From a bacterium (GTDB taxonomy: Bacteria; Patescibacteriota; Microgenomatia; Daviesbacterales; UBA10151): a DNA stretch of 64,000 bases. The position numbers were made by a program, and so were the translations under genes. The notes under the pieces were generated by a model that worked only from the letters and a program-made list of their open reading frames with translations, did not search any database and was not told where the DNA came from. Positions within the stretch are counted from its first letter, which is position 1. Every line of letters begins with the position of its first letter. Below are positions 10,175 to 42,366 of the stretch, in pieces. The DNA lies in NCBI GenBank assembly GCA_021786315.1, contig JAJYNN010000003.1, forward strand, positions 67,360 to 131,359, read 5' to 3'.

Positions 10175-11461
10175 TTATTTTAAGAAGGATTCGTAGTTCC
10201 TCTCGACTAGTTTGCTCTCGAATTGTTTGGCAGTATCCAAAATTACCGAAACCACAATCAAAAGCCCGGTGCCCCCCAAAGCCAAGGTGGTAACGTTAGT
10301 AATTTGGGAAACAATCGAAGGCAAGATTGCCACTATCCCCAAAAAGAGAGCTCCGGCCAAGGTAATCCTATTCAAGATATAAGTTAGATAGCTGGCCGTG
10401 GCTTCCCCCGGCCTGATTCCGGCAATAAAAGCCCCGGCTTTTTTCAATTCATCGGCAATCTTGTTGGGGTTGAAAACGACAGCCGTATAAAAGTAGGTAA
10501 AGCCAATCACCAGGAAAAAGTAGGTTAAGTTATAAGTTAAAGAGCGCACCTGGAAGTTGGCAATAAACCACCTACCAATATTTTGTAAAGCCGGCTGGGG
10601 AAGTTGGGATAAGTACTGGCCGGCAAACGACGGAATTAATACCAAAGACACCGCAAAGATAATCGGGATCACACCGGCTTGGTTGACCCGCAGCGGCAGG
10701 TACATTGAAGCCCGGTTAACTTCCCGCCCCCCGGTAAAACGCCGGGCATATTGGACCAAAACCTGCCTTCGGCCTTCATTAATAAAGACTACCCCAGCAG
10801 TAATTGCCAAAGCCAAAGCCGCAAAAAGAAGATAATTTAGGATTTGCTGGGTATCAACCAAGGAAGCAGTTTGGGCAACCGTCACCGGCATCCGGGCCAC
10901 AATACCGGCAAAAATCAGAAGAGAGATGCCGTTGCCGATACCGTATTCGGTAATCAATTCCCCCAGCCACATGGCAAAAAGTGTGCCGGCAGTCATGGTG
11001 ACAATTATAAGAAGAATGCTTAAAGGATTAAATTGGAGGATAATCCCCTGGTTTTTGAGCAGGGTAAACATGGCAATTGACTGCAACACCGCCAAAGGAA
11101 CAGTCAGATACCTGGTATATTGGTTAATTTTTTGCCTGCCGTACTCACCCTCTTTGGATAAGGCCTCAAGGGAGGGGAAGACCATAGTTAAAAGCTGGAT
11201 AATAATCGAGGCATTAATATAAGGATTAAGTCCTAAAGAGATAACTGAGAAATTAGCTAAAGTCCCGCCTGAAAAAATATCCAAAAGACCTAAAAATTGG
11301 TTCCCGGAGAAAAGAGAACGTAATGCCTGTAAATCTACCCCGCTTACCGGAATATGGGCTGCAATTCGGTAAACAATGATGATTATGGCAGTGATAATGA
11401 TTTTTCGGCGAAGTTCAGGGATCTTAAGGGAGTTAATTATCGGGGCAAGGAAGCTAGTCAC
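10175..11461 (-). CDS. secY: Preprotein translocase subunit SecY
   Basis: Ten TM segments and a typical SecY sequence. The ORF-track ATG at 11488 has no SD and overlaps rplO by 35 nt. An in-frame GTG at 11461 is preceded by AGGAGGG and overlaps the rplO stop by only 7 nt, so I prefer the GTG start. Confidence 0.85.
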
Positions 11462-11894
11462 GAATAACTTTCCCTCCTGCTTTTTCAATCTTGGCGGCAG
11501 CTGAAGCAGTCACGGGTAATTTTATATTTAAAGCTTTGGTAATCTCACCATCACTCATAATTTTGACTCCATACTTTTTCGCATTACTTTCAGAGACTAA
11601 ACCTTTTTCAATAACGCTTTGCAAATCGATTGTTGTCCCTGCAGCAAAAGCAGAAAGCTTATCTAAAGATAATGTTACCATTTTTGCGCTCATTTTAGGA
11701 TTACCCAATCCCCGACGGTAGGGGAACTTTTTGTACATGGGAAGTGTTCCCCCGATAAATCCGGGAGCAACCTTACCACGGGCTTTTTGGCCTTTGGTTC
11801 CCCGTCCGGAGGTTTTTCCTTTTCCGGATCCCAAACCCCGGCCAACCCTTTTCTTCGATCTTTCGACAACTTTGCTTAATTCGTGTAGTTTCAT
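11454..11894 (-). CDS. rplO: 50S ribosomal protein L15
   Basis: [28 protein letters not shown] is typical uL15. Confidence 0.9.
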
Positions 11895-11895
11895 C

Positions 11896-12408
11896 TTATT
11901 TCTTCCCTTTTTTAGCTCTTTTTACCTTTGGCTCCTCTGACTCATTCGACTCTCTGACTTTTAATTTCAATTCTTTTAACGCCTCCAAGGTAGCATAAAT
12001 ATTGGAAGCCCGGTTGCTGGTTCCGATAATCTTAGAAACTACATCGGAAATTCCTGCAGCATCAACAACCACCCGCACCGCTCCTCCGGCAATAATACCA
12101 GTACCTGCGGGAGCTGGTTTCAGCAAAACTTTAGCCGCGCCTCTTTTAATCACTACAGTGTGGGGAATAGTCCGGTTATCAACTAAAGGAACAGTGATCA
12201 TATGTCTTTTGGCATAAGTTGAGGCCTTTCTGACCGCTGACTGAACATCGGAAGCTTTACCTAAGCCCACACCAACCCGGCCTTTTTTATCACCGGCAAC
12301 CACCAAAACCGAAAGGGACCTTTTGTCTCCGCCTTTGGTCTTTTTGGAGACCCGGTTTACCTGGACAACTTTTTCGAAAAATTCCGGAACAATTACATCT
12401 GGATTCAT
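11896..12408 (-). CDS. rpsE: 30S ribosomal protein S5 (with Lys/Glu-rich C-terminal tail)
   Basis: VNRVSKKTKGGDKRSLSVLVVAGDKKGRVGVGLGKA is typical uS5. It is directly followed by rplO with no L30 gene between. Confidence 0.95.
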   Translation of the reverse strand: MNPDVIVPEFFEKVVQVNRVSKKTKGGDKRSLSVLVVAGDKKGRVGVGLGKASDVQSAVRKASTYAKRHMITVPLVDNRTIPHTVVIKRGAAKVLLKPAPAGTGIIAGGAVRVVVDAAGISDVVSKIIGTSNRASNIYATLEALKELKLKVRESNESEEPKVKRAKKGKK

Positions 12409-18961: not shown

Positions 18962-19065
18962 CAGTGGCTAGTCGCTAGAGTCTTGAATCTAGGACTTAAC
19001 CTCCTTTTCTTGTTTTTTATCCTTACTAGACTCCAAACTCTTGACTCTAGACTCTAGTTTTTCTG
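18962..19065. repeat. CTAGAGTC-type palindromic repeat spanning the rplD 3' end and the rplD-rplW spacer
   Basis: cagtggctagtcgctagagtcttgaatctagg ... ctagactccaaactcttgactctagactctag. Its coding part gives the rplD tail LESRVKSLESS. Confidence 0.4.
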
Positions 19066-19720
19066 CTGCTTCTTTGGTCAGCATTAAGGTTTGGAACTTT
19101 AGAACCTGCATAATATTTAACTGGTCAAAAGCCACCGCCTCCACCTTGGGCAAATTCCGGACAGCCCTTTCCAACTTTTCCGGTGTTTTATCTGTTACCA
19201 AAAGTAAGTTGTTCTTAGCCAATTTATTAACAAATTCCTGAATTTGCTTGGTCTTTCCGGAAACAGTATCTACTCCGGTCACACCCAGAAGGTTGCCGTT
19301 TGAAACTTTAGAAGATAAAGCGGCAACTAAAGCCGCTTTTCTCATCTTCTTGGGTAGATCCAAGGTCACTTTCCGGTATTTTGGACCTAAAGCAATACCT
19401 CCGCCAACAAAGATCGGGGCGCGGAGGGCACCATGCCTAGCTCCACCGGTTCCTTTTTGGGTCCTGATTTTTCTGGTAGAACCCTGGACTTGCCCCCTAG
19501 TTTTAGTGTTGGCAAAATGGGATTTTTGGTTATTGGTATAAACCCTAACAGCCTGGGCCAGAAGGGTTTTATTAACTTTCGCTCCAAAAACCTCTTCCGG
19601 TAAAGACAAAGTGCCACTTTCTACCCCGGTCATGTTATAAACCGGTACCAAAAGACCTTCTGCCTTTTTAGCAGCTACCTTAGTAACTTTTTCAGTTGTT
19701 TCTTTCTTAACTCTCGGCAT
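18989..19720 (-). CDS. rplD: 50S ribosomal protein L4
   Basis: 243 aa. A typical uL4 core (…GSTRKIRTQKGTGGARHGALRAPIFVGGGIALGPK…). The C-terminal tail is encoded by the CTAGAGTC-type repeat. Confidence 0.9.
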   Translation of the reverse strand: MPRVKKETTEKVTKVAAKKAEGLLVPVYNMTGVESGTLSLPEEVFGAKVNKTLLAQAVRVYTNNQKSHFANTKTRGQVQGSTRKIRTQKGTGGARHGALRAPIFVGGGIALGPKYRKVTLDLPKKMRKAALVAALSSKVSNGNLLGVTGVDTVSGKTKQIQEFVNKLAKNNLLLVTDKTPEKLERAVRNLPKVEAVAFDQLNIMQVLKFQTLMLTKEAAEKLESRVKSLESSKDKKQEKEVKS

Positions 19721-20495
19721 TTACTTCTCCTTCTTCTTCTTTCGGTGTATCGGCGTCTCGGTGTGTCTGTGTGTCAGAACTCTCTTCTTCGCTGACATTC
19801 TGATGCTCTGATGCTCCGACACTCTGTTCTTCTTCCTCCTCAATCTTTTCTTCCGGTGGAGGAGTATAGCCTTTGATTCTTCCCAGTTTAGTAATTTCCA
19901 CCAAAGATCCTACCGGTCCGGGAACTCCGCCTTTGACCACTAATAAATTATTCTTTTTATCCACAGTAACCACTTCCAGATTCTTCACTGAGACGGTATC
20001 AAAACCATAGTGTCCGGCCATTCTCTTACCCTTGTAAACCCGTCCCGGGGTAGTCCCTGACCCTAAAGATCCGGGAGCGCGGTGCCTGTCTGACTGGCCG
20101 TGGGTTTTCGGGCCACCGGCAAAGTTATAACGCTTGACCCCGCCGGCAAAACCCCGACCCTTGGAAACACCAGCAACTTTAACGGCATCACCTTTAGAAA
20201 AGACATCGCCAACGTGGAGTTCTCTTCCTAAGTCCTCCACCTTGCCGGTTACTTCTCTAAAAAACCGGAGCTTTTGATCTACTCCGGCCTTCTTAGCGTG
20301 TCCCACTTGAGGTTTCTTAACTGATTTTTTAGTGGAAAAACCAAGCTGGGTTGCTTCATATCCATCTTTATCCTTGTTTTTAATTTGGGTAACAAAGTTG
20401 GGCCCAACTTCCAAAATTGTAGCGCCAACACGGCGCCCACGGGCATCGTAGGTTGAAGTCATATTTTTCTTAATTCCTAATAATGTATTAACCAT
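19707..20495 (-). CDS. rplC: 50S ribosomal protein L3 with ~55-aa acidic C-terminal extension
   Basis: Start set at the ATG at 20495 (MVNTLLGIKKNMTSTYDARGRRVGATILEV), which aligns with canonical L3 N-termini. The ORF-track GTG at 20588 would add 31 unmatched residues. The C-terminal tail contains the repeat element at 19751-19826. Confidence 0.9.
   Translation of the reverse strand: MVNTLLGIKKNMTSTYDARGRRVGATILEVGPNFVTQIKNKDKDGYEATQLGFSTKKSVKKPQVGHAKKAGVDQKLRFFREVTGKVEDLGRELHVGDVFSKGDAVKVAGVSKGRGFAGGVKRYNFAGGPKTHGQSDRHRAPGSLGSGTTPGRVYKGKRMAGHYGFDTVSVKNLEVVTVDKKNNLLVVKGGVPGPVGSLVEITKLGRIKGYTPPPEEKIEEEEEQSVGASEHQNVSEEESSDTQTHRDADTPKEEEGEVNAES
19751..19826. repeat. In-frame palindromic repeat element, copy in the rplC C-terminus
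   Basis: cggcgtctcggtgtgtctgtgtgtcagaa...ttctgatgctctgatgctccgacactctg. It shares the 11-mer cggcgtctcgg and the tgtc/ctgat core with the map copy. Confidence 0.6.
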
Positions 20496-20504
20496 ATTTT
20501 TTGC

Positions 20505-20762
20505 CAAGAAAAAGAGTGAGTCCTTCGATAAACTCAGGATCTCACTCAGTAATTGTGCTTTCAATTGTCGTATCCTTTTGGGACGCACAATCTACTGAAA
20601 TTTTTCTTTTGTTAAATCAAACAAATACCATTTGCATGGCCTGTAGGAATTCTAGCACAACTTGAGGCTAAAATGCAATAGTTTGAATCTAGGGATAAAA
20701 ACTAAGAACCTATTGTCTTTAGACCGAAGGTCGCAAGATAGTTGATTGCCGAGAAGCTAAGA
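20505..20762 (-). promoter_or_regulatory. Unusually long (267 nt) rpsJ-rplC intergenic leader with a hairpin and U-run just before rplC
   Basis: On the mRNA strand, gagtgagatcctgagtttatcgaaggactcactc (7+4 bp stem) is followed by tttttcttggcaaaaaatATG. In other bacteria these two genes are adjacent. Confidence 0.35.
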
Positions 20763-21147: not shown

Positions 21148-21172
21148 ATTCCTAAATCTTAAATCCTAAATC
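21148..21172. repeat. ATTCCTAAATCTTAAATCCTAAATC motif directly 3' of the tuf stop
   Basis: Single-arm copy of the GATTTAGGAAT family, followed by the GC hairpin terminator. Confidence 0.4.
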
Positions 21173-22353
21173 TATTTAATGATTTTAGTAATAGCTCCAG
21201 CTCCAACTGTCTTTCCACCTTCACGGATAGCGAATCTCAAACCCTCTTCCATAGCAACCGGAGTGATTAACTTTCCAGTAATATGAACAGTGTCTCCTGG
21301 CATAGCCATCTCAACACCCTCAGGAAGTTGGACTTCACCGGTCACATCAGTTGTTCTGACATAGAACTGTGGTCTGTATCCCTTGAAGAATGGGGTGTGT
21401 CTTCCACCCTCTTCTTTAGAAAGGATGTAAACTTCAGCTTCAAACTCAGAGTGAGGAGTAATAGAACCCGGCTTGGCTAATACCTGGCCACGCTCGACAT
21501 CGTTCTTTTCAATACCCCGGAGCAGGATTCCGGCGTTGTCTCCAGCTTGACCCTCATCAAGCATTTTGTGGAACATCTCGATACCGGTAACCACAGTTTT
21601 CTTGGTTGGGCGGATACCGACTATTTCAACTTCTTCATTAACCTTAACTTTACCTCTTTCGATTCTTCCGGTAACCACGGTTCCCCGACCCTTGATAGAA
21701 AAGACATCCTCAACAGCCATCAAAAACGGCTTATCAACATCCCTTTGAGGAGTTGGAATCCATTCGTCAACAGCCTTCATTAATTCCTCAATGGATTTGA
21801 CTGCCTCAGGATCACCGTTTAGAGCCTTCAAAGCACTTCCGCGGATGATTGGAGTGTGATCTCCGTCATATTCATATTTCTTAAGTAAATCGCGGATTTC
21901 CTCTTCCACTAAGTCCAAAAGCTCCGGATCAGAAACCTGGTCAACTTTGTTCATGTAGACCACAATAGCCGGAACACCAACCTGGCGGGCCAAGAGTAAA
22001 TGCTCGCGGGTTTGAGGCATCGGTCCATCCGGAGCGGAAACTACCAAGATAGCACCATCAGCTTGAGCAGCACCGGTAATCATGTTCTTGATATAGTCGG
22101 CGTGACCCGGCATATCGATGTGGGCATAGTGACGATTTTCAGTTTCGTATTCTTGGTGGGAAATGTTAATGGTAATTCCACGGGCTTTTTCTTCAGGGGC
22201 GTTATCGATTTGGTCAACAGATCTTTTCTCGGCTAAACCTTTGTTAGCTAAAACGTTAGTGATAGCTGCGGTCAAGGTAGTTTTTCCATGGTCGACGTGA
22301 CCCATGGTTCCAATATTGACGTGTGGTTTTGTTCTTTGATATGTACCTGCCAT
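21172..22353 (-). CDS. tuf: Elongation factor Tu
   Basis: [23 protein letters not shown]-type motifs, 393 aa. Unmistakable EF-Tu. Confidence 0.97.
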
Positions 22354-22587
22354 ATATTTAAATTAGACTTAAGAATTATTACAAATATTTTTAAGATTTG
22401 CAATACTTCTCTTTGAAGGCCTGTGGGCCTAAAAATCCAGCTTGCTCAGCTGGGTAAAAGTAATATACACAATCTTTTTAAATTATGCAAGAGGGAAATT
22501 TAGCTTTGAAAACCTCTCTAAACTTGAAAAATTGGCCAATTTGTGCTATCCTATCCTCCTCTGTAAAAAGAGGAGAAGGGAGAGAAG

Positions 22588-24009
22588 ATGAGCGAACGAC
22601 TCACTTCCATCTCAATCTCAACTGCCAGCGCACCTACAATAAGGTTAAGTGCACCCAGCACAATGCCAAGCGTAGGAGGCAGAGCATTCTCCCCTAACTT
22701 TCTTTCCCATACCCAAGTATTAGCTCGACCTGCACCCAAACCCGATTTCCTGAAGATGCCTAAGGTAGAAGTAGTCAAAGCTCCTTCTTCAGACCAAAGA
22801 ATATCTCAAGCAGAAGCGTTTAACCCGAACAATAAGATTCTCTGGCAAGCTCCAAAACCGGAAATCGGAGGCCAGAAACCAGAGAGCAAACCAAGCGTCT
22901 CTACATTTAAAGCTGAAAAAACTCCTGCCGCTCAACCTTCGAAGGAACAGCCCAAGGCAGTTGAAGCTAAACCAAAGCCCCCAGTTCAACCAGAAAAACC
23001 CAAAGCCGAGGCTCCCAAAATTGAGACCAAAGATATCACTAAACCAAAAGTTGTTACCCGAAGGGAAGAAGCTAAAACCCAACCCTTAGCCCAAACTTTA
23101 GCCCAGGAGTTAGCGCCGGGGGTACAAAAACCGGACTTTAAACGGCTGGAAAGGGCCGTAAAAGCCACGGAAAAGCCGGTTTCGGTCCTCAAACAAGAGG
23201 TTGAAGAAGTGGCCAAAGCAATCAATGTACCAAAGCCAAAGGAACAACCGGAGGCTAAACCACTGCAGCTTCCAATCTCTCCGGCACTCAAACCGGAAAC
23301 CCAAAGAGCAACCCAAACCCAACCGGAATTAAGTCCGGATCTAAAACAAGCCTTAAAAACCTACGAGTTACTTGCAGCAGCCTTAATTAAGACACAAGTT
23401 GCGCCGGAAGCAGCCCAAAAACAAGCCGCAATTATAGTCTCCCAGGCAATCAGGCCGGAACTCAAAGAACAGTTTTTAACCTCTCTTCAACAAAAACCTG
23501 AGGCCAAGGAAAGGCAACAAGAGGCAAAAGAGAGAGATGAAATTATCAGATTCTATATCGAAAGGGATCCGGAAACAGACAACAGGCGGGTGAAAGCCGC
23601 AATCCAGGCTCTGATAGAGAACTTCCAACCGGGTGAAATACTATCCGGAACAAAGGTCGCCGATAGGATCACATCTAATCTTTTATCAAAAGAACAGCTC
23701 AGCCCAATAATCAGGCCTATCCATCCCTTTGACGGCTTACTGGAAGATTTCCAGACATTTATCCGAAGGTCGGAATTTAGAACTTTGGAGGAAGGATACC
23801 AAAGAATAGATCTGGCCAGCAAACTTTTCCCTGCGGCCCGATTTAATACCCAAGTCACGACCGAGGGGCTCCATCGGGAAAAGGCGTACCGGATTTACTA
23901 CGGAAACATTGATTATGTCTGGGTGGACGGCTGGGGAGTTTGCAGATTTGAACCTGCTGCCGAATCAAGGGAAAAACCCAACCTGTTTGGAACTCTCCAC
24001 AAAGACTAA
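22588..24009 (+). CDS. Hypothetical protein: ~300-aa Pro/Lys/Glu/Ala/Gln-rich low-complexity N-terminal region plus a ~170-aa C-terminal globular domain
   Basis: It is the only long ORF in this interval. Strong SD GAGGAGAAGGGAGAG before the ATG, and a putative promoter TTGAAA-17-TATCCT upstream. It is convergent with fusA, with a 4-nt gap. I recognise no domain. Confidence 0.6.
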   Translation: MSERLTSISISTASAPTIRLSAPSTMPSVGGRAFSPNFLSHTQVLARPAPKPDFLKMPKVEVVKAPSSDQRISQAEAFNPNNKILWQAPKPEIGGQKPESKPSVSTFKAEKTPAAQPSKEQPKAVEAKPKPPVQPEKPKAEAPKIETKDITKPKVVTRREEAKTQPLAQTLAQELAPGVQKPDFKRLERAVKATEKPVSVLKQEVEEVAKAINVPKPKEQPEAKPLQLPISPALKPETQRATQTQPELSPDLKQALKTYELLAAALIKTQVAPEAAQKQAAIIVSQAIRPELKEQFLTSLQQKPEAKERQQEAKERDEIIRFYIERDPETDNRRVKAAIQALIENFQPGEILSGTKVADRITSNLLSKEQLSPIIRPIHPFDGLLEDFQTFIRRSEFRTLEEGYQRIDLASKLFPAARFNTQVTTEGLHREKAYRIYYGNIDYVWVDGWGVCRFEPAAESREKPNLFGTLHKD

Positions 24010-24013
24010 GGAG

Positions 24014-26152
24014 TTAATGTTCAACACGGCCGGTAAAACCGGAGGAAGCAACAATTTTCGCAGCTATATTTGAAGGAACCTCTTCGTAGTGGTCAGCCTC
24101 CATATAGTAAGTAGCGCGGCCTTGGGACATAGACCTGATAGTGGTAGCGTAACCGCCCATTTCTGCTAAAGGCACATAGGCCAAAACTACCCGGGCGTTA
24201 CCGCGCATCTCAGTTGATTGGATCTGAGCGCGTTTTGAAGAAAGGTCGGCGATAATATCACCCAAAAAGTCTTCCGGAGTGGTGACCTCCACCTTCATGA
24301 TTGGCTCAAGCAGAACCAATCCGGCCTTTTGGGCAGCGTCAGTCAAACCTAGAGATCCGGCAATCTTAAAGGCGATTTCCGAAGAATCCACCTCGTGGAA
24401 TGACCCGTCATAAACTACCACCCGGATATCAGTCACCGGATAACCGGCCAAAATACCGGTATCCTCTTTTTCGATCACACCCTTTTCAATTGGAGTAATA
24501 AATTCCCGGGGGATTGCACCACCAACAATCTCCGAAGCAAATTCCCGACCCTGGCCACGGGGTAAGGGCTCGATGCGAAGCAAACAGTGACCGTATTGAC
24601 CGCGACCTCCGGTTTGGCGGATATACTTTCCTTCTCCGCTGGCAGTCTGGGAAATAGTCTCCCGGTAAGCTACCTGCGGCTGACCAACATTGGCTTCCAC
24701 TTTAAATTCCCGGCGCATCCGGTCAACCAAAACCTCAAGCTGAAGTTCACCCATACCGGCAATAATGGTTTGGCCGGTATCAGCATCAGTTTTTACCCTG
24801 AATGTTGGATCCTCTTCTGAAAGTCTGGACAAAGCTAAACCTAATTTTTCCTGGTCAGACTTGGTCTTGGGTTCAATAGCCAAGGAAATAACCGGTTCCG
24901 GGAAGTTAATGGATTCCAAAGTGATTGGGTTGCCCTCGTCACACAAGGTATTGCCGGTGATAGTGTCCTTCAAACCGACAGCAGCCACAATCTCTCCGGC
25001 GTAGGCTTCCTCAATATCCTCCCGCTCATTAGCGTGCATTAACACCAAACGGCCGATTCTTTCCTTGATATCCTTGGTGGAGTTGTAAACATAGGAACCG
25101 GACTTTAAGACTCCGGAATAAACCCGGATGTAGGTTAATTTACCAACGTGAGGATCGACCTGGATCTTAAAAGCCAAGGCGGACATCGGGGCCTCAGGTA
25201 CAGCTTTCCTGACCTCTTCCTGGCCGGTTTTGGGATTGGTACCGACAAACTCGGCAATATCCTGCGGGGATGGTAAAAATTCCACTACTGCATCAAGCAT
25301 TGGCTGGACACCCTTATTGCGAAGTGAAGACCCGGCCAAAACCGGAACAATCTTGTTATCGATAACTGCTTTCCTTAAGGCCTTCTTTAATTCCTCAATA
25401 CTGATCTCTTCCCCATTTAAGTATTTTTCCATTAGGGAATCGTCAGTTCCGGCAATTTCTTCCACTAATTTTTCGCGGTGGATTTTGACATCTTCAACCA
25501 TATCAGCCGGAATCTCTTCTTCCACGAACTTGGCTCCGGTTTCATCACCCTGCCAGACAAAGGCTTTCTGGGTTAAAAGGTCAACTACACCCTTAAAATC
25601 ATTCTCTCTTCCAATCGGCAGGTTGTAAGGCAAGGCGTTAGCCCCCAGACGCTCCCTGGCGGACTCAATTGTCCCCAAGAAGTTGGCCCCCAAGACATCC
25701 ATCTTATTGGCAAAAGCAATTAGCGGGACCTTGTACTTATTGGCCTGTCTCCAGACTGTTTCAGTTTGGGATTGGACTCCGGAAGCAGAATCCAAAACGA
25801 TAACTCCCCCGTCCAAAACCCGCAAAGACCTTTCCACTTCGGCGGTAAAATCCACGTGTCCCGGGGTGTCAATTAAGTTGATCCTGGTTTCCTGGCCTTC
25901 CATCGGACCGGTCTTGGGAGTCCAGAAGGTGGTAATAGCCGCAGAAACGATAGTAATACCGCGCTCGCGCTCCTGTTCCATCCAGTCAGTGGTGGTTGTA
26001 CCTTCATCAATATCACCGATCTTGTAAGTCCGGCCGGTGTAAAAAAGAATCCGCTCGGTTGTGGTGGTTTTACCCGCATCAATGTGGGCGATAATACCAA
26101 TGTTTCTGATTCTGTCGAGAGGAAAATCTCGTTTTGTTTTTGCAACTGCCAT
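24014..26152 (-). CDS. fusA: Elongation factor G
   Basis: [15 protein letters not shown], 712 aa. Unmistakable EF-G. Confidence 0.97.
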
Positions 26153-26153
26153 A

Positions 26154-26372
26154 TTATTTATCTTTCTCTAATTTTTCGATGACTTCTTTAACCTCATCAA
26201 TTCTTACCTGATAGGTCTCAGCATCCTCTTCTAAAGATTGTAGGGCTGAGTCATCACCTAAGTTGGTTCTGGCTTCTTCATCTCTTTGCTGCAAGATAGA
26301 CTTATGCTCACTAATGAGTTTTTTGAGTTTTTCTTGCCACATTTTCAGTTTTTCTTGATTTATTTTGTTCAT
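26154..26372 (-). CDS. Small (72 aa) Lys/Glu-rich coiled-coil protein, translationally coupled to fusA
   Basis: Its stop codon lies 1 nt before the fusA ATG (TAAtATG). A terminator sits upstream, so it heads the fusA transcript. No recognisable family. Confidence 0.5.
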
Positions 26373-26509: not shown

Positions 26510-27220
26510 TTACCCCTCGGGAGAATTTCGATCCAGGCAAATTTTCATAACTTTGGTGGGCACTTGAGGCAGGTAATTATATGCTCCACCGCTCTTTAGG
26601 CGATAGCCGTTAATAATCCCCTTAGCCTTTTTCTCAACTTTTTCCGGAGAAAATCCCGCAGCTTCGATCTTTGTCCGGAAAACAGATTCCCCCCGGACTA
26701 AGGCCATCACAAACCCCCAATAGATTTTATGCTGCTCCTCCGTCATATAGGAATCAATCCTCTGGACACTCTCACACGTTTCCATAGCATACCTTATTAA
26801 GCCGTTATGGTTGATCTGTTTTCTGGAGATACTTAGTCTTTCCGGCTGTTCCTCCGGCTTTTTCTCTTTTTGAGCCTCTTTTAAGCCTTTGGTTTCCGGC
26901 ACCGCCGCCTCCGGGTCAAAATAATCCCGGAGCATCCAACAACCAATTACTTTTGCTTCATCCAGCTCAGCCTCCGAGAGCCCTGCTTTTTTCACTTCCT
27001 TCATCGCCAAATTAAGTTGGGATTCCTTGGATTCCGGATCACGCAACGTAAAATAGTAGGCAAAAGTAAATTCCCGGGAGACCGCTTTAACAGGATCGGG
27101 AACATCTAAAATAGATAGTTTTGCCCGGGTATAATTTTTTAACTTCCCAAACGGCTCCTCCAACTTGTGGTTAGCATAAACAGAGGCATCAACAGGTAAT
27201 TTGGGCAGTTGTTCCGTCAT
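26510..27220 (-). CDS. Hypothetical protein (236 aa) sitting between rpsG and fusA
   Basis: Intact ORF immediately downstream of rpsG (30-nt gap). Mixed alpha-helical sequence. No recognisable domain. Confidence 0.6.
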   Translation of the reverse strand: MTEQLPKLPVDASVYANHKLEEPFGKLKNYTRAKLSILDVPDPVKAVSREFTFAYYFTLRDPESKESQLNLAMKEVKKAGLSEAELDEAKVIGCWMLRDYFDPEAAVPETKGLKEAQKEKKPEEQPERLSISRKQINHNGLIRYAMETCESVQRIDSYMTEEQHKIYWGFVMALVRGESVFRTKIEAAGFSPEKVEKKAKGIINGYRLKSGGAYNYLPQVPTKVMKICLDRNSPEG

Positions 27221-35874: not shown

Positions 35875-36492
35875 TTAATAGTTATTAGAAGGTCTAACCA
35901 ATAAGACTTTTGCTTTTTGGTAAAGATCTTCCACTGATCCCTCTTCCCACCAGCCGGTAATATCATTATCAGGGATTAACTCAGGACGATTTGTGGGAAT
36001 TCTGCCCGGACTCCATCGCCATCCTCTCGGCCAAAGACCCGGATCAGTCTTAGGCTTTCCTTCCCTCACTTGAATAGGTTCTTCACCCCGAAAAGGAAAG
36101 CCGATGTGGTATTCCAGCGCAATGTTAAACGATACATGATGGAACTGGTTCACAAAACCACGCTTATTGTATAAGGCCAGGGGGTCGAAAGCTTCCTCTC
36201 TGGAAATTAAATCTTTATCGTAACCGTAGGCAAAATTCTCAGTAACATACTGTGCCTCAACTATATGATGCTCAAAATATCTGGCATACCCGGGGACATA
36301 AATTTTATAGAAAACATCCAAATAATCCCAAACATCACCAGCCGCTGAAACCCAAGCCAGTCTCCAATTAGCCTTTCCATAAATTTCATTCCAACATAAA
36401 GCTTGAGTATCCTTGTTTTTACCCTGGTATCCAGGAGTGTCGGCAATCTTCCAAAGATCCCCATCTATCTGTACTTCCTGTATACCAGCCAT
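35875..36492 (-). CDS. Hypothetical protein (205 aa), Trp/His-rich, probably soluble
   Basis: Intact ORF. No recognisable domain. Confidence 0.55.
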   Translation of the reverse strand: MAGIQEVQIDGDLWKIADTPGYQGKNKDTQALCWNEIYGKANWRLAWVSAAGDVWDYLDVFYKIYVPGYARYFEHHIVEAQYVTENFAYGYDKDLISREEAFDPLALYNKRGFVNQFHHVSFNIALEYHIGFPFRGEEPIQVREGKPKTDPGLWPRGWRWSPGRIPTNRPELIPDNDITGWWEEGSVEDLYQKAKVLLVRPSNNY

Positions 36493-36510
36493 TGGCCAGA
36501 TTATAACAGA

Positions 36511-37662
36511 CTAAATAATTTTTTTGGTTAGAAGGTTATCGTAAAGATTTTTCCAGGCTATAAGTAAGGCCCCGAATCCGAAGATGACAGCAAAGAAAGT
36601 GACAAATCCTCCAAGGATAGGAATGATTGAAAGGATTTCATAAATAATCAGACCCACCAAAAGTGCCCAGCCGCCTGTCCTTGCCTGGTGAAAAAGTTCA
36701 AAGACTTTAGAACCTAAGGCCAGTGAGGAAACTATAACCGAAAGGTATAAAGCAATTAAGTAAAGCCCCAGAATAATTAGTGCCAAAGGAATTCCAACCA
36801 AAGTAAACATCAAAATAAAGACAACAAAGGGCACAACTATCAAAGTAATAATACCTGCCACAAGGCTTAACCAGGGAGACTTAATTAAAGTGGCAGCTTT
36901 CCCCCAGAAAAAGTTTGGCATAAACCGGAGAAGAATTAACCCGACAATAAAGTACGCCAGGAGGGAAATAATTTTGAAGGTAATGCCAAAGCCCACCAAA
37001 GGACCCACCTCCCGCGAAGGCTTGGCCGGGGAAATATGCTGATTAGTTTTCCCGGAAACCGTCGCTCCGGATTGAATTTGGGCTTGGTTATTACTGGTGT
37101 AATCTAAGTTCCCGTTAACTTTTGCCCCTGATGTCAGTGTTAACTGGTTAGCTATCGCGTTCACATCACCCCCCACACTGCTTCCTAAAATTACCTGCCC
37201 CCCGCTGGCGGTAATCCCCCGGCCAACCGGACCGGAAACATCAAGCGAACCGGATGCAGTGGTTAAGCTGCCGTGAATTGATGCCTTATCAGTAACACTT
37301 ATTGAGCCCCCGGCAGCGGAAACATTCCTGTCCACCTCGCCGTTAATGGTTGTCTGCCCTCCAACCGACCGCAAACTCCCGGTAACTTTTCCTGAGACGG
37401 TAATATTCCCGCCAAGTACCAGCAAATCACCATTAACAGTTCCATCAACCATAATATTGCCGCCAGCCAAAAAGGCATCACCATTAACAGTTCCCGATAA
37501 AATGACAGTTCCACCTGAAGCAAAATAATCCCTATTTATAGTTTCCCCTTTGGGCAAGGTTGAGATTTGCGTTCTGTCAGGGCTTTGGGCAAAGACAGGG
37601 GTAAGGGTTACAAAAAGCGAGATAAAAAATACCAAGCACAAAGAGAGAATGACCTTAATCAT
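36511..37662 (-). CDS. Secreted / membrane-anchored beta-helix repeat protein (bactofilin/DUF4097-like Gly-rich repeats) with C-terminal multi-TM anchor
   Basis: N-terminal signal peptide MIKVILSLCLVFFISLFVTLTPVFAQ. About 200 aa of G-x-V/I-x-G-D repeats. A hydrophobic C-terminal region with 4-5 TM helices. Confidence 0.65.
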   Translation of the reverse strand: MIKVILSLCLVFFISLFVTLTPVFAQSPDRTQISTLPKGETINRDYFASGGTVILSGTVNGDAFLAGGNIMVDGTVNGDLLVLGGNITVSGKVTGSLRSVGGQTTINGEVDRNVSAAGGSISVTDKASIHGSLTTASGSLDVSGPVGRGITASGGQVILGSSVGGDVNAIANQLTLTSGAKVNGNLDYTSNNQAQIQSGATVSGKTNQHISPAKPSREVGPLVGFGITFKIISLLAYFIVGLILLRFMPNFFWGKAATLIKSPWLSLVAGIITLIVVPFVVFILMFTLVGIPLALIILGLYLIALYLSVIVSSLALGSKVFELFHQARTGGWALLVGLIIYEILSIIPILGGFVTFFAVIFGFGALLIAWKNLYDNLLTKKII

Positions 37663-39963: not shown

Positions 39964-42366
39964 CTATTTGGGGGCAACATTGATATTGATATTTTGATCC
40001 AGGAAAGGAATCCTGGCAAACTTTGAAGGCAGGGAAGGACTAAGTTCAATATCCGATCCAATTGCGTTGTTTAGGCTCTTAAGCCTGTCCGCTACCTCAG
40101 CAAAACTCTTACCCCGGATATCCTTTTTAATCTGCGCCAAATCATACTTTGGCATCATTTTTGCCTTAAACCGGGCAGTAAATACCAACCTGCCGTCTTT
40201 TTCCACCTTGGTAATGTCTGCCTGGGTCTCAGTATCCTGCAAGTCCAACTGGTACCCGTCAGGCACATTAGTTTCCACCAGCTTGCCCACAATCGACCTT
40301 AAATCATTATCGGAATAGGCGGTGCCTTTAAAGCGGACGGTGGCGTTAAGCGAAAACTCGCTGGCAGCATCATTGACCTGCTTACTGTAACTGTACTTGG
40401 CATCCACTATCGATAGTCCCTCCGAGATAATCTTTTTGTCCCCGGAAAGTTTGCCCTTTAAGGCTTCCACGGCTTTGGTCCGCAGATCATCCAAAACCTG
40501 AGCCTGTAATTTCTTTTGGTCATCAGAGGTGACCACAGTGACTGTTTTGGAAGTTCCGCCGGAAAGTGCATCGGTAATCATCGCCGTGACTTGTGACTTG
40601 GAATAACCTGAAACAGAAAGCCCGTTATTGGTATCTGAGCTTGCAGGCAGGTTGCTGTCGGGCCCTATCGCCGCTGCGGTAATCCCTACCGATTCCGTCT
40701 TTCCCGGCTTGATAACTGTTGTCAAATCCGCTCCCAGCGTTGAGGACTGGGAAGCAATTTTTGCTGAGGAATCCAGAGTAAACTTCAAACCGTTATTGGC
40801 GGTTAAGGTTGTGCCCTGGGAAAGTGAAACCGAGGAATTTGTCATATTATAGAGAGTAACCTTTCCTTTGGCGGGATCACCGATTTGTTTACTTCCTGTA
40901 GCTGACCCTTTACCTGATCCGTCGACGGTTGTTTCCACAGTTGTACCGGGAATAATCTTTTTTTCCTCATCCACGCTGGTCGCCTTAGGGTCGGCAATAA
41001 CTTGGGTGTCTTTTTCTAAAATTTTGGGCTCCACAAAAATAGTGACATTGGCCTTAACCAAAAACACATACGCCAGTACTACCACCAGGAGAAACACCGG
41101 GATCAGAACCAGCTTTCCGGCTGCAGATCCCTGGATTTTTTCCACAAAAGGCATCACCGGCCCCAAGGCAACAGAGGCTTTATTAAGTATTGAAGAAACA
41201 GGAGAATTTTTGCCTCCCATGTGGTGTTTCCCCTCCATTCCCTCAGGAGCAACAAGGTTGGCATCCCGGTGGGAGGAAACAGGCAAATGCATCTCTTCCT
41301 CACTATAACGGTCACCTTCCGCAACTTTGGGTTCCATAAGCTCATCCTCATCCAATGCCTCCATTTCCTCCTCCATCCCCACCATCTCATCCTCTTTCCT
41401 TACCTCATCTAACTCACCGGCAAACTGATCCACCGACTCACCGATTTCATCCGATTTATTCCGATCCCTAATGTCCCCTTTAACAAAACCCAAATCCTCA
41501 TCAGGCGCAACCGCTTTAGCCCGGGAAAGCATGGGCTTGGCCGGGTGTAATGCTTTGGGGCCGGAAGCGGGGGCAGCAGCTTCTTGTTTGGAAACAAAAC
41601 TATGCTTTAAATCAACCTCCGGATTTAGTTCAAAAGCGGCGGAAGAGATAATTGCCCGAAGAGGCGCCTCCTCTTCTAAAATGTCTATCTTGGGAAAGTG
41701 CAGAAAAGGAAGCTTGGAAACCCAGGGATAAGACATTAGGTCATCATGGATCTTGTTTAAGTTCTCCTCTTTTTTGGTGGAATAAAGAAGGATTCTTGAG
41801 GGTAGTACTTCAACTTCGGTAAACTGACTTAGAACTTTCTCCACATCATCAAAAAGGTGGTCTGTCCGTTTGGCTGAACGGGTTTCAGCAATTTTCCCTC
41901 CCCTGATTAATGTGGCTTCCAGGGATTCACCAACCCCAAACAAAATAACTGTCGGCGGTGCTCCCTCGCCTTTTTGTAGGGCAAAGGATAGAGCGTTGGT
42001 GGTGGTGACAAAAGCCAAAGCTTCCAGGTCGCATTCTTTCAAAATCTTTCTTAAAAGCTTTAAATATGGCTCCTTGAGGTTATCATCCAAACTCCAGCTG
42101 TCGGGAACACCGAAAAGGACCTTCTGCGGCTCAATTTCTAAAACCCCCAAGGCTTTATCAAAAGCCTGCAAAGATTTTTCCAGCAAGTCCTCATGGTCGC
42201 TATAAGCGAAAGTGGCTGTGCCTAAGATATCAACCTCTTTGCCAAAGATTGCCCAAACTGCCGCAGTCACTTCAGTCAAACCAATATTTAAAGCAAGGAA
42301 ATATTCCGAATCTTCGGTTTTAGGTTTAAACGGAAGCTGGGCAGTTATTTTGTCTAAGAAACTCAT
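39964..42366 (-). CDS. Large (800 aa) membrane protein: N-terminal actin-like (FtsA/PilM-like) domain, acidic linker, one TM helix, ~430-aa Ser/Thr-rich extracytoplasmic domain
   Basis: ALNIGLTEVTAAVWAIFGKEVDILGTATFAYS and VILFGVGESLEATLIRGG resemble actin-fold ATPase phosphate loops. Acidic stretch EDEMVGMEEEMEALDEDELME. TM LVLIPVFLLVVVLAYVFLV. Function unknown. Confidence 0.55.
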   Translation of the reverse strand: MSFLDKITAQLPFKPKTEDSEYFLALNIGLTEVTAAVWAIFGKEVDILGTATFAYSDHEDLLEKSLQAFDKALGVLEIEPQKVLFGVPDSWSLDDNLKEPYLKLLRKILKECDLEALAFVTTTNALSFALQKGEGAPPTVILFGVGESLEATLIRGGKIAETRSAKRTDHLFDDVEKVLSQFTEVEVLPSRILLYSTKKEENLNKIHDDLMSYPWVSKLPFLHFPKIDILEEEAPLRAIISSAAFELNPEVDLKHSFVSKQEAAAPASGPKALHPAKPMLSRAKAVAPDEDLGFVKGDIRDRNKSDEIGESVDQFAGELDEVRKEDEMVGMEEEMEALDEDELMEPKVAEGDRYSEEEMHLPVSSHRDANLVAPEGMEGKHHMGGKNSPVSSILNKASVALGPVMPFVEKIQGSAAGKLVLIPVFLLVVVLAYVFLVKANVTIFVEPKILEKDTQVIADPKATSVDEEKKIIPGTTVETTVDGSGKGSATGSKQIGDPAKGKVTLYNMTNSSVSLSQGTTLTANNGLKFTLDSSAKIASQSSTLGADLTTVIKPGKTESVGITAAAIGPDSNLPASSDTNNGLSVSGYSKSQVTAMITDALSGGTSKTVTVVTSDDQKKLQAQVLDDLRTKAVEALKGKLSGDKKIISEGLSIVDAKYSYSKQVNDAASEFSLNATVRFKGTAYSDNDLRSIVGKLVETNVPDGYQLDLQDTETQADITKVEKDGRLVFTARFKAKMMPKYDLAQIKKDIRGKSFAEVADRLKSLNNAIGSDIELSPSLPSKFARIPFLDQNININVAPK

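What the first reader, a model, noticed from the sequence alone, without database searches (positions are those of the whole stretch)
22588..24009. An opposite-strand 473-aa Pro/Lys/Glu-rich protein is wedged between fusA and tuf
fusA and tuf are normally adjacent and co-transcribed. Here a plus-strand ORF lies between them. It has its own sigma70-like promoter (TTGAAA-17-TATCCT) and a strong SD. It ends 4 nt from the fusA stop, convergently, which leaves no room for terminators. A minus-strand hairpin with a U-run lies between this ORF and tuf. The protein has a ~300-aa PEAK/PKPE-type low-complexity spacer and a C-terminal ~170-aa domain (…IRFYIERDPETDNRRVKAAIQ…YRIYYGNIDYVWVDGWGVCRFEP). The C-terminal domain matches nothing I know.
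Basis: partly seen in the sequence, partly recalled or inferred. Interest (0 to 1): 0.55.

Follow-up and report, generated by a model that had tools for sequence, protein, structure and literature searches.

The report
Orphan gene splitting fusA and tuf
A real gene for a previously undescribed protein sits backwards between two of the most conserved translation genes (fusA and tuf) in a small group of tiny-genome groundwater bacteria. What the protein does is still unknown.

Summary
ORF 22588-24009 (+, 473 aa) lies between fusA (24014-26152, -) and tuf (21172-22353, -). It is the only plus-strand gene in a 33-kb minus-strand block.

It is a genuine gene. An exhaustive profile search of 1.84 billion proteins found 18 representatives, with four conserved blocks.

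The position is conserved in the close clade, where EF-Tu is 90-95% identical but this protein only 27-35%. fusA converges on its 3' end in three loci. tuf lies divergent or one gene away in three. More distant members sit elsewhere, for example next to pyrG-rplS, and eight of nine contexts look monocistronic.

A sigma70-like promoter, a leader hairpin with compensatory changes and a GGAG Shine-Dalgarno are conserved upstream.

The C-terminal ~125 aa give a confident alpha/beta model (pLDDT 83). That model has no Foldseek match in PDB or BFVD. Nothing matches in Pfam, NCBIfam, PHROGs, PADLOC or PDB sequences. There is no TM segment or signal peptide.

Linker length and charge vary widely across the family. 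My inferred best guess is a cytoplasmic tether or adaptor protein.

The insertion splits the str operon: tuf has its own conserved promoter behind a hairpin with a T-run.

Interest is moderate. This is a new family of unknown function, and fusA-tuf insertions are common in CPR genomes.

The parts
22524..22552 (+). Sigma70-like promoter of the ORF: TTGAAA, 17 nt, TATCCT, with TG upstream of the -10
   Evidence: The same architecture recurs in L003 (TTGACA-17-TACACT), L088 (TTGCAT-17-TATATT) and L090 (TTGACA-17-TATAGT), each 3 nt before the leader hairpin. No transcript data.
22556..22575 (+). Leader hairpin: pyrimidine-rich 5' arm (CTCCTCT) and purine-rich 3' arm (AGAGGAG), 7 bp, loop GUAAAA
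   Evidence: dG is -12 kcal/mol, z = -2.2. Equivalent hairpins occur in L003 and L088. Three of the 7 pairs differ from L003 by changes on both sides. It begins only 3 nt after the -10, so how much of it lies in the mRNA is unknown.
22578..22582 (+). Shine-Dalgarno GGGAG, 5 nt before the ATG
   Evidence: Sequence. AAGGGAG / AAAGGAG is conserved in L003 and L088.
22588..24009 (+). CDS, 473 aa, founding member of an undescribed protein family
   Evidence: The identical protein occurs on a 942,606-bp NCBI contig and in two Logan assemblies.
22588..22707 (+). Conserved N-terminal peptide region (MSERLTSISIS ... GGR..F), predicted disordered
   Evidence: Alignments. pLDDT 30-35.
22744..22851 (+). 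LWQA module (res 53-88: DFLKMPKVE...RISQAEAFNPNNKILWQA), a short linear motif present in one to two copies in relatives
22852..23334 (+). Pro/Lys/Glu/Ala-rich disordered linker (net charge +9)
   Evidence: Across the family the linker is 16-195 aa long with net charge from -17 to +19. It is not a tandem repeat.
23335..23499 (+). Conserved helical hairpin (PDLKQALKTYELLAAAL...), res 250-304
   Evidence: 17 consecutive identical residues with P0002. pLDDT is about 75 even with a 2-sequence alignment. The block is conserved family-wide.
23530..23907 (+). C-terminal alpha/beta domain (res 315-440). Signature: FERD..AD..R ... ISG..IA..M ... SEI.K ... DGS ... PAVR...TTE.V..ED..RV
   Evidence: A3 alignment. 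AF2 pLDDT 83, pTM 0.70. No Foldseek match in PDB (best E 0.25, TM < 0.31) or BFVD. No PDB sequence match.
23908..24009 (+). Non-conserved C-terminal tail running up to the fusA stop codon
24010..24013 (.). 4-nt spacer between the convergent stop codons of the ORF and fusA
   Evidence: In relatives the two genes overlap by 4 nt (L098) or 23 nt (L090).
24014..26152 (-). fusA (EF-G), convergent neighbour
22428..22453 (-). Hairpin plus T-run upstream of the tuf promoter. Candidate terminator for minus-strand read-through from fusA.
   Evidence: AGCTGGATTTTTAGGCC is conserved in L003, where the stem is longer (z = -2.1). The role is inferred.
22375..22403 (-). tuf promoter-like site: TTGCAA-17-AATAAT with TG
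   Evidence: Conserved in L003 (TTGCAA-17-GATAAT) within an 83 %-identical block.
21172..22353 (-). tuf (EF-Tu), divergent neighbour

Best explanation
This is a genuine, vertically inherited, single-gene transcription unit. It encodes a member of an undescribed protein family restricted to CPR/Patescibacteria-type bacteria from groundwater-like samples.

The protein has five parts in order:
- a short conserved N-terminal peptide;
- one LWQA linear motif;
- a long disordered linker whose length and charge are free to vary;
- a conserved helical hairpin;
- a compact ~125-aa alpha/beta C-terminal domain with no recognisable relatives.

It has no membrane segment and no signal peptide. The most likely mode of action (inferred, not shown) is a cytoplasmic tether or adaptor. 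The folded C-terminal domain would bind or act on one partner, while the N-terminal motifs recruit another across a flexible spacer.

In the clade that contains this window the gene has long resided on the opposite strand in the fusA-tuf spacer. It is transcribed from its own sigma70-like promoter through a conserved leader hairpin.

Its presence breaks the str operon. fusA and the ORF converge with no room for terminators, so their transcripts must overlap. tuf is re-started from its own conserved promoter behind a hairpin with a T-run.

The location is best read as a stable lineage-specific insertion rather than proof of a role in translation.
For: The gene is real:
- 473 codons with a conserved start (MSERL / MSTERL / MSAERL).
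- P0002 aligns over 95 % of the length (E = 3e-58 pairwise).
- A profile search of 1.84 billion representatives gave 18 hits, most 445-498 aa.
- There are four conserved blocks.
- GC content matches the neighbouring genes.

The position is conserved:
- window: fusA | ORF | tuf.
- L098: fusA overlaps the ORF by 4 nt.
- L090: fusA overlaps by 23 nt, then ORF, uppP, tuf.
- L003: ORF | tuf | rpsJ.

The protein evolves fast compared with its neighbours: EF-Tu 89.5-95 % and the EF-G C-terminus 85-87.5 %, against 27-35 % for the ORF.

It has its own expression signals. The promoter, hairpin and SD geometry is conserved in four loci, with three compensatory pairs.

It looks monocistronic, and the downstream gene is convergent in 8 of 9 contexts.

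The tether architecture is supported as follows:
- disorder is predicted for residues 1-165;
- the linker is 16-195 aa with charge from -17 to +19;
- the C-domain model is confident;
- there is no TM segment (maximum KD19 0.73).

The operon is split: the tuf promoter and the hairpin/T-run are conserved in L003.

The host is CPR-type: there is no L30 gene between S5 and L15, the contig is 0.94 Mb, and several ORFs of 205-800 aa in the window have no Pfam match.
Against: - There is no experimental or transcript evidence. The promoter and terminator are consensus matches that are not significant on their own.
- The hairpin starts 3 nt after the -10, so a canonical start site would fall inside its 5' arm.
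- The adaptor function is inferred from architecture only. No partner is identified and no conserved neighbour exists family-wide.
- Conserved Asp, Ser and Arg residues (ERD, DGS, PAVR) could equally mark an enzyme.
- Conserved synteny with fusA/tuf in the close clade leaves a translation link open.
Confidence: 0.55

Rival explanations
1. Translation-linked factor. The protein acts on EF-G, EF-Tu or the ribosome, for example as a tethered regulator or assembly/quality-control adaptor. It is kept between fusA and tuf, sharing a divergent control region with tuf, so that it is co-regulated with them.
For: - The fusA/tuf position is retained across a clade in which the protein itself has diverged to 27-35 % identity.
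- Other members lie near rplS-pyrG or rpsF-ssb.
- A Gly/Arg-rich N-terminal motif (GGR..GGF; GGRGSNRGVGGF in P0012) and a basic linker in the close group could bind RNA.
Against: - More distant members sit beside unrelated genes: a T4SS pilin cluster, HhH-GPD/peptidase M16, and GSDH.
- Linker charge flips to strongly acidic in other members.
- Small CPR genomes are dense in translation genes, so proximity is weak evidence.
- There is no similarity to any known translation factor.
Confidence: 0.15
2. The position matters mainly at the RNA level. Convergent, terminator-less transcription of the ORF against fusA, together with fusA read-through antisense to the ORF, forms an excludon-like mutual antisense switch. 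This switch would set the EF-G : EF-Tu ratio or uncouple tuf from fusA.
For: - The stop codons are 4 nt apart here and overlap by 4 and 23 nt in L098 and L090.
- There is no terminator-like site at the junction. The nearest minus-strand candidates are a weak 5-bp hairpin inside the ORF (23338-23323) and, about 1.56 kb downstream just before the tuf promoter, a hairpin conserved in L003 (22453-22437).
- The downstream gene is convergent in 8 of 9 family contexts.
Against: - The protein sequence is under clear constraint (four conserved blocks and a folded domain), so the product is the primary function.
- Convergent overlaps are common in compact genomes.
- In L003 and L088 the convergent partner is not fusA.
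- There are no transcript data.
Confidence: 0.15
3. Cell-envelope or cell-division scaffold. The protein would be a cytoplasmic organiser, in the manner of ZipA, SepF, GpsB or PopZ, that links the peptidoglycan or division machinery through its linear motifs.
For: - Neighbours in several lineages are envelope-related: uppP/BacA directly upstream in L088 and L090.
- A LysM protein, LemA, M48 and MurT/GatD lie downstream in L101-L105.
- The motif-linker-domain architecture is typical of such organisers.
Against: - None of these neighbours is conserved across the family, and none is adjacent to the ORF in the window.
- There is no membrane anchor.
- There is no similarity to ZipA, SepF, DivIVA/GpsB or PopZ models in Pfam or NCBIfam.
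Confidence: 0.1
4. Not a gene. It would be a chance or shadow ORF opposite a decayed minus-strand gene, or recently acquired mobile or phage cargo.
For: - It has opposite-strand orientation inside an operon.
- Its composition is low-complexity.
- The word-index search found only one homologue.
Against: - Plus-frame conservation holds across 18 representatives, with in-frame indels.
- Minus-strand ORFs have no Pfam hit.
- GC and codon-position GC match the neighbours.
- There are no flanking repeats.
- There are no hits in viral contigs, phage or plasmid records, PHROGs (one E = 0.016 hit only), PADLOC or BFVD.
Confidence: 0.02

Closest known systems
Canonical str operon (rpsL-rpsG-fusA-tuf) of E. 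coli and most bacteria
   Same: The gene order rpoB-rpoC-rpsL-rpsG-...-fusA-...-tuf-rpsJ-rplC-rplD is on one strand. In about 40 non-CPR loci fetched here, fusA and tuf are 27-250 nt apart.
   Different: Here 1,660 nt separate fusA from tuf. They contain an opposite-strand gene, a hairpin with a T-run and a separate tuf promoter. Two further no-Pfam genes sit between rpsG and fusA. Other CPR loci also carry inserts at this site, but those examined lie on the same strand in all but one locus (L012) and are unrelated.
Motif-linker-domain tether proteins (TonB, ZipA, PopZ; recalled from general knowledge)
   Same: Short conserved terminal motif(s), a Pro/Lys/Glu-rich or acidic disordered spacer of variable length, and a small globular C-terminal domain.
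   Different: There is no TM anchor. No TonB_C, ZipA or PopZ model matches. The C-terminal fold is unmatched in PDB by Foldseek. The similarity is in architecture only, not homology.
Excludon / convergent overlapping transcription units (described in Listeria and others; recalled from general knowledge)
   Same: Oppositely oriented neighbouring genes whose transcripts must overlap because no terminator fits between them.
   Different: Classical excludons involve long antisense 5' or 3' UTRs with demonstrated reciprocal expression. Nothing is demonstrated here, and the arrangement is convergent at the 3' ends.
Multigene insertions between concatenated translation operons (Brandis et al. 2019, PMC6735719, seen)
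   Same: A lineage-specific insertion into the conserved transcription/translation gene block.
   Different: That work concerns insertions between operons in Gammaproteobacteria. Here the insert is inside the str operon, on the opposite strand, in a CPR-type genome.

Membership tests
Any curated protein family (Pfam-A, NCBIfam, PHROGs, PADLOC) | Score above the family threshold against a curated HMM | tested here: not met
   The window protein had 0 Pfam hits at E <= 1. Its only NCBIfam hit was CadC at E = 0.5, 9 bits against a 400-bit cutoff. All 18 members were scanned and gave only scattered single-member hits at E >= 0.003 (Pfam), one hit (NCBIfam) and none (PADLOC). PHROGs gave one hit of unknown function at E = 0.016.
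Any protein with a solved structure | Sequence-profile or fold similarity to a PDB chain | tested here: not met
TonB-like energy transducers | N-terminal transmembrane anchor | tested here: not met
   The maximum 19-residue Kyte-Doolittle hydropathy is 0.73, well below about 1.6.
TonB-like energy transducers | TonB_C domain | tested here: not met
   No Pfam hit.
Elongation-factor-associated proteins (EF-Ts/UBA-like N-domain, other GTPase partners) | Recognisable EF-Ts / TS-N or related domain | tested here: not met
   No Pfam, NCBIfam or PDB-profile match.
Elongation-factor-associated proteins (EF-Ts/UBA-like N-domain, other GTPase partners) | Physical interaction with EF-Tu or EF-G | not testable with these tools
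   This needs AF-Multimer or biochemistry.
Mobile-element or phage cargo gene | Homologues in phage, plasmid or viral contigs; flanking repeats; atypical composition | tested here: not met
   no match; no flanking repeats; GC 0.473 against 0.46-0.49 in neighbours.
Sigma70-type promoter | -35 and -10 hexamers with 16-18 nt spacing, conserved in position in relatives | tested here: met
   The transcription start itself was not tested.
Intrinsic terminator (minus strand, 22453-22428) | GC-rich stem followed by a U-run; actual 3' ends in RNA | tested here: inconclusive
   The pattern is present and partly conserved in L003. The stem is only 6 bp, dG is -10.3 and z is -0.41. There are no RNA data.
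Excludon-like antisense pair | Overlapping antisense transcripts with reciprocal expression | not testable with these tools
   Only the geometry is shown: a 4-nt gap, or 4- and 23-nt overlaps in relatives.
CPR/Patescibacteria genome | Absence of ribosomal protein L30 from the spc operon; small genome | tested here: met
   S5 (11896-12408) abuts L15 (11454-11894) with no L30 between them. The protein is carried on a 942,606-bp contig. No 16S rRNA lies in the window, so the exact phylum is not determined. The best EF-Tu matches in species representatives are only 72-76 %.

The most novel reading that the evidence does not exclude
The C-terminal domain is a truly new fold. The protein would be a CPR-specific component of the translation-elongation apparatus or of its regulation, for example a tethered factor acting on EF-G or EF-Tu. 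It would be kept antisense inside the str operon so that convergent transcription and a shared divergent control region balance EF-G, EF-Tu and its own level.
Probability: 0.12. Interest if true: 0.75.

Novelty: new variant of a known kind. Interest (0 to 1): 0.42.

Why it matters
CPR bacteria have minimal genomes with unusual ribosomes and many unexplained lineage-specific proteins.

A conserved, fast-evolving gene stably lodged on the opposite strand inside the str operon has three uses:
- It marks a natural case of operon splitting at one of the most conserved gene junctions in bacteria.
- It defines a new protein family with a confidently modelled domain that has no recognisable relatives.
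- It gives a concrete candidate for testing whether CPR bacteria have extra, lineage-specific partners of the elongation machinery or a new cytoplasmic scaffold.

If it proves to be just another orphan scaffold protein, the value is mainly in annotation: a new domain family, and a caution that fusA-tuf adjacency does not hold in CPR genomes.

Tried and rejected
Searches that found nothing useful:
- Word-index homologue searches with the family alignment and with the C-domain alignment were swamped or empty. Only the exhaustive profile search found the family.
- A GTDB species-genome scan with the 2-sequence alignment found nothing.
- Metagenome scans found nothing with the close-group alignment and one 1.3-kb locus with the second group. 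The 18-sequence alignment was too divergent to derive patterns.
- Cluster look-up gave no names or accessions.
- Literature searches for the run accessions and for fusA-tuf insertions found nothing relevant.

Structure work with limits:
- The full-length AF2 model from two sequences was poor (pLDDT 43) and was not used for fold search.

Hypotheses rejected:
- Shadow ORF.
- Tandem-repeat protein.
- Transposon-like insertion.
- Phage, plasmid or defence origin.
- tRNA or known RNA in the spacer.
- A second copy in the window, or distant relatives among the genes inserted between fusA and tuf in other CPR loci.

Not pursued:
- A minus-strand promoter-like site at 22510-22482 that would give a ~47-nt RNA ending at the hairpin is not conserved in L003. 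I treat it as chance.
- The automatic alignment of the leader hairpins was out of register, so pairs were compared from the individual folds instead.
Full report
**1. Observation**

The ORF list shows a 473-codon ATG ORF at 22588..24009 on the plus strand.
- It lies between tuf (21172..22353, minus) and fusA (24014..26152, minus).
- In one search it is the only long plus-strand gene between 4084 and 37662.
- That block reads, on the minus strand: rpoB, rpoC, rpsL, rpsG, two unknown genes, fusA, [ORF], tuf, rpsJ, rplC, rplD and the rest of the ribosomal-protein operons.
- The two convergent stop codons are 4 nt apart.

- TTGAAA-17-TATCCT with a TG lies at 22524-22552.
- GGGAG lies 5 nt before the ATG.
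- A minus-strand hairpin with a T-run lies at 22453-22428.

On their own the promoter-like and terminator-like matches are no more frequent than in shuffled sequence. The hairpin also folds no better than shuffles (z = -0.41). Their weight therefore comes from conservation, described in section 4.

**2. It is a real gene and defines a family**

- The protein is identical in two Logan assemblies and on a 942,606-bp NCBI contig.
- The word-index search found one homologue, P0002: 496 aa, 34 % identity over 95 % of the length, pairwise E = 3e-58.
- A profile of the two sequences, scored against 1.84 billion cluster representatives, found 18 proteins at E <= 1e-3. Most are 445-498 aa.

Their alignment shows four conserved blocks separated by unalignable linkers:
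- an N-terminal peptide (MS.E.L ... GGR..F);
- a roughly 36-residue module ending in LWQA (window res 53-88), present twice in some members;
- a helical hairpin (window PDLKQALKTYELLAAAL..., res 250-304);
- a C-terminal domain with the signature FERD..AD..R / ISG..IA..M / SEI.K / DGS / PAVR..TTE.V..ED..RV.

Other checks agree.
- Conservation is in the plus frame with in-frame indels.
- The minus-strand shadow ORFs hit nothing in Pfam.
- GC and codon-position GC resemble the neighbours.
- There are no flanking or tandem repeats.

**3. Synteny**

In the close group (P0001-P0005) the position is conserved.
- L003 (P0002): ORF divergent from tuf-rpsJ.
- L098 (P0004): the fusA 3' end overlaps the ORF by 4 nt.
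- L090 (P0005): fusA overlaps the ORF by 23 nt. On the other side lie uppP and then tuf.
- L088 (P0003): uppP is upstream and a MaoC gene is downstream.

The neighbours are close relatives: EF-Tu 89.5-95 %, EF-G C-terminus 85-87.5 %, S10 99 %. The ORF product is only 27-35 % identical. It is thus a fast-evolving gene in a slowly evolving neighbourhood.

More distant members sit elsewhere.
- P0009 and P0016 are divergent from pyrG-rplS and upstream of LysM/PolX/LemA/M48.
- P0006 lies near rpsF-ssb.
- P0012 lies after an HhH-GPD glycosylase and converges on a peptidase M16 gene.
- P0010 is next to a GSDH gene.
- P0017 lies between a Trans_reg_C/T4SS-pilin cluster and a 1087-aa unknown gene, in groundwater.

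Across these contexts the gene looks monocistronic in 8 of 9 cases, with a convergent downstream neighbour. No partner gene is conserved family-wide.

**4. Expression signals**

Upstream of the four close members the same layout recurs:
- a -35/17 nt/-10 promoter-like site;
- 3 nt;
- a hairpin with a pyrimidine-rich 5' arm and a purine-rich 3' arm;
- AAGGGAG/AAAGGAG, then ATG.

The hairpins fold at about -12 kcal/mol. Between the window and L003, three of seven pairs differ on both sides while staying paired.

Because the stem begins 3 nt after the -10, a canonical start would fall within the 5' arm. Whether this is a 5'-terminal stabilising stem, an anti-SD/SD-like translational element or something else cannot be decided here.

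On the tuf side, a TTGCAA-17-AATAAT site (22403-22375) and the leader are within an 83 %-identical block shared with L003. The 3' arm and T-run of the minus-strand hairpin (AGCTGGATTTTTAGGCC) are also conserved, with a longer stem in L003.

The simplest reading (inferred) has three parts:
- fusA transcription has no terminator at the junction and runs antisense into the ORF, at most to this hairpin;
- tuf restarts from its own promoter;
- the ORF transcript ends somewhere inside fusA antisense.

**5. The protein**

- There is no hydrophobic segment (maximum KD19 0.73) and no signal peptide.
- AF2 with two sequences predicts disorder for residues 1-165 and helices from residue 250.
- With the 16-sequence C-domain alignment the model is confident (pLDDT 83, pTM 0.70). 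Its order is beta-alpha-alpha-(loop)-alpha-alpha-beta-alpha.
- Foldseek finds nothing in PDB (best E 0.25, TM < 0.31) or among viral models.
- Profile searches of PDB sequences find nothing.
- Pfam, NCBIfam, PHROGs and PADLOC find nothing for any member.
- The first linker ranges from 16 to 195 aa and from -17 to +19 net charge. It behaves as a spacer, not a functional surface.

This motif-spacer-domain layout is that of tether or adaptor proteins. I commit to that as the most likely mode of action, with low confidence and an unknown partner.

**6. How unusual is the location?**

Among 80 tuf loci from species representatives, non-CPR genomes have fusA-tuf gaps of 27-250 nt. Loci labelled as Paceibacterota, Moraniibacteriota, Saccharibacteria and Zambryskiibacteriota have gaps of 637-5258 nt with extra genes, on the same strand in all but one locus (L012).

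None of those inserts belongs to this family. The junction is therefore a recurrent insertion site in CPR-type genomes. What is particular here is the opposite orientation and the long retention.

The window itself shows CPR traits:
- no L30 gene between S5 and L15;
- a contig of about 0.94 Mb;
- several ORFs of 205-800 aa in the window with no Pfam match.

**7. Verdict**

This is a new, narrowly distributed protein family of unknown function. It occupies a conserved antisense slot that splits the str operon in one clade.

- Links to translation, to antisense regulation or to the cell envelope remain open rivals. The evidence for each is contextual only.
- Interest is moderate. Orphan genes are abundant in CPR genomes and inserts at this junction are common there.
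- The conserved antisense placement, the conserved leader element and the unmatched confident domain nevertheless make it a reasonable target for structural and transcriptomic follow-up.

Noticed in passing
window 26154-26372 and 26510-27220 (minus strand): Two more genes with no Pfam match (72 aa and 236 aa) sit between rpsG and fusA. The str operon of this organism therefore carries three lineage-specific inserts. The 72-aa gene ends 1 nt before the fusA start.
   Followed up: partly
window 11454-12408: rpsE (S5) is followed directly by rplO (L15), with no rpmD (L30) between them. This is the ribosomal-protein loss typical of CPR bacteria.
   Followed up: partly
window 22455-22480 and L003 2060-2090: A block (GTAAAAGTAATATACACAATCTTT) next to the minus-strand hairpin is conserved between the window and L003, although it lies in non-coding DNA. 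It contains TATATT on the minus strand. This could be a second tuf-leader promoter feeding an attenuator-like hairpin.
   Followed up: no
L037 5555-5845, L055 5533-5820, L071 4006-4287: Three other CPR loci share a conserved ~95-aa protein (…EWGL…EEQ…LYQAILVRSL…TTPEDV…) immediately upstream of tuf on the same strand. Some also carry very large unknown proteins (1134-1547 aa) between fusA and tuf.
   Followed up: no
L003-L007: All five contigs carrying P0002 end at most about 110 nt beyond a 184-aa minus-strand ORF with no Pfam hit and no homologue in the window (one contig ends within it). That ORF overlaps the end of the gene by 22 nt. The shared end point suggests a repeat or strain-variable junction where fusA would be expected.
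   Followed up: partly
L094 5629-8892: The distant family member P0017 is followed, with a 4-nt overlap, by a 1087-aa protein with no Pfam hit. It is preceded by a 424-aa Trans_reg_C protein and four T4SS_pilin genes. This is the only context where the gene looks operonic.
   Followed up: partly
window 19707-20588 and 18989-19720: Ribosomal proteins L3 and L4 carry long charged C-terminal extensions. The L3 extension is acidic (…PPPEEKIEEEEEQ…EEEGEVNAES) and the L4 extension is Lys/Glu-rich.
   Followed up: no
window 35875-37662 and 39964-42366: Three sizeable minus-strand ORFs (205, 383 and 800 aa) just beyond rpoB have no Pfam match.
   Followed up: no
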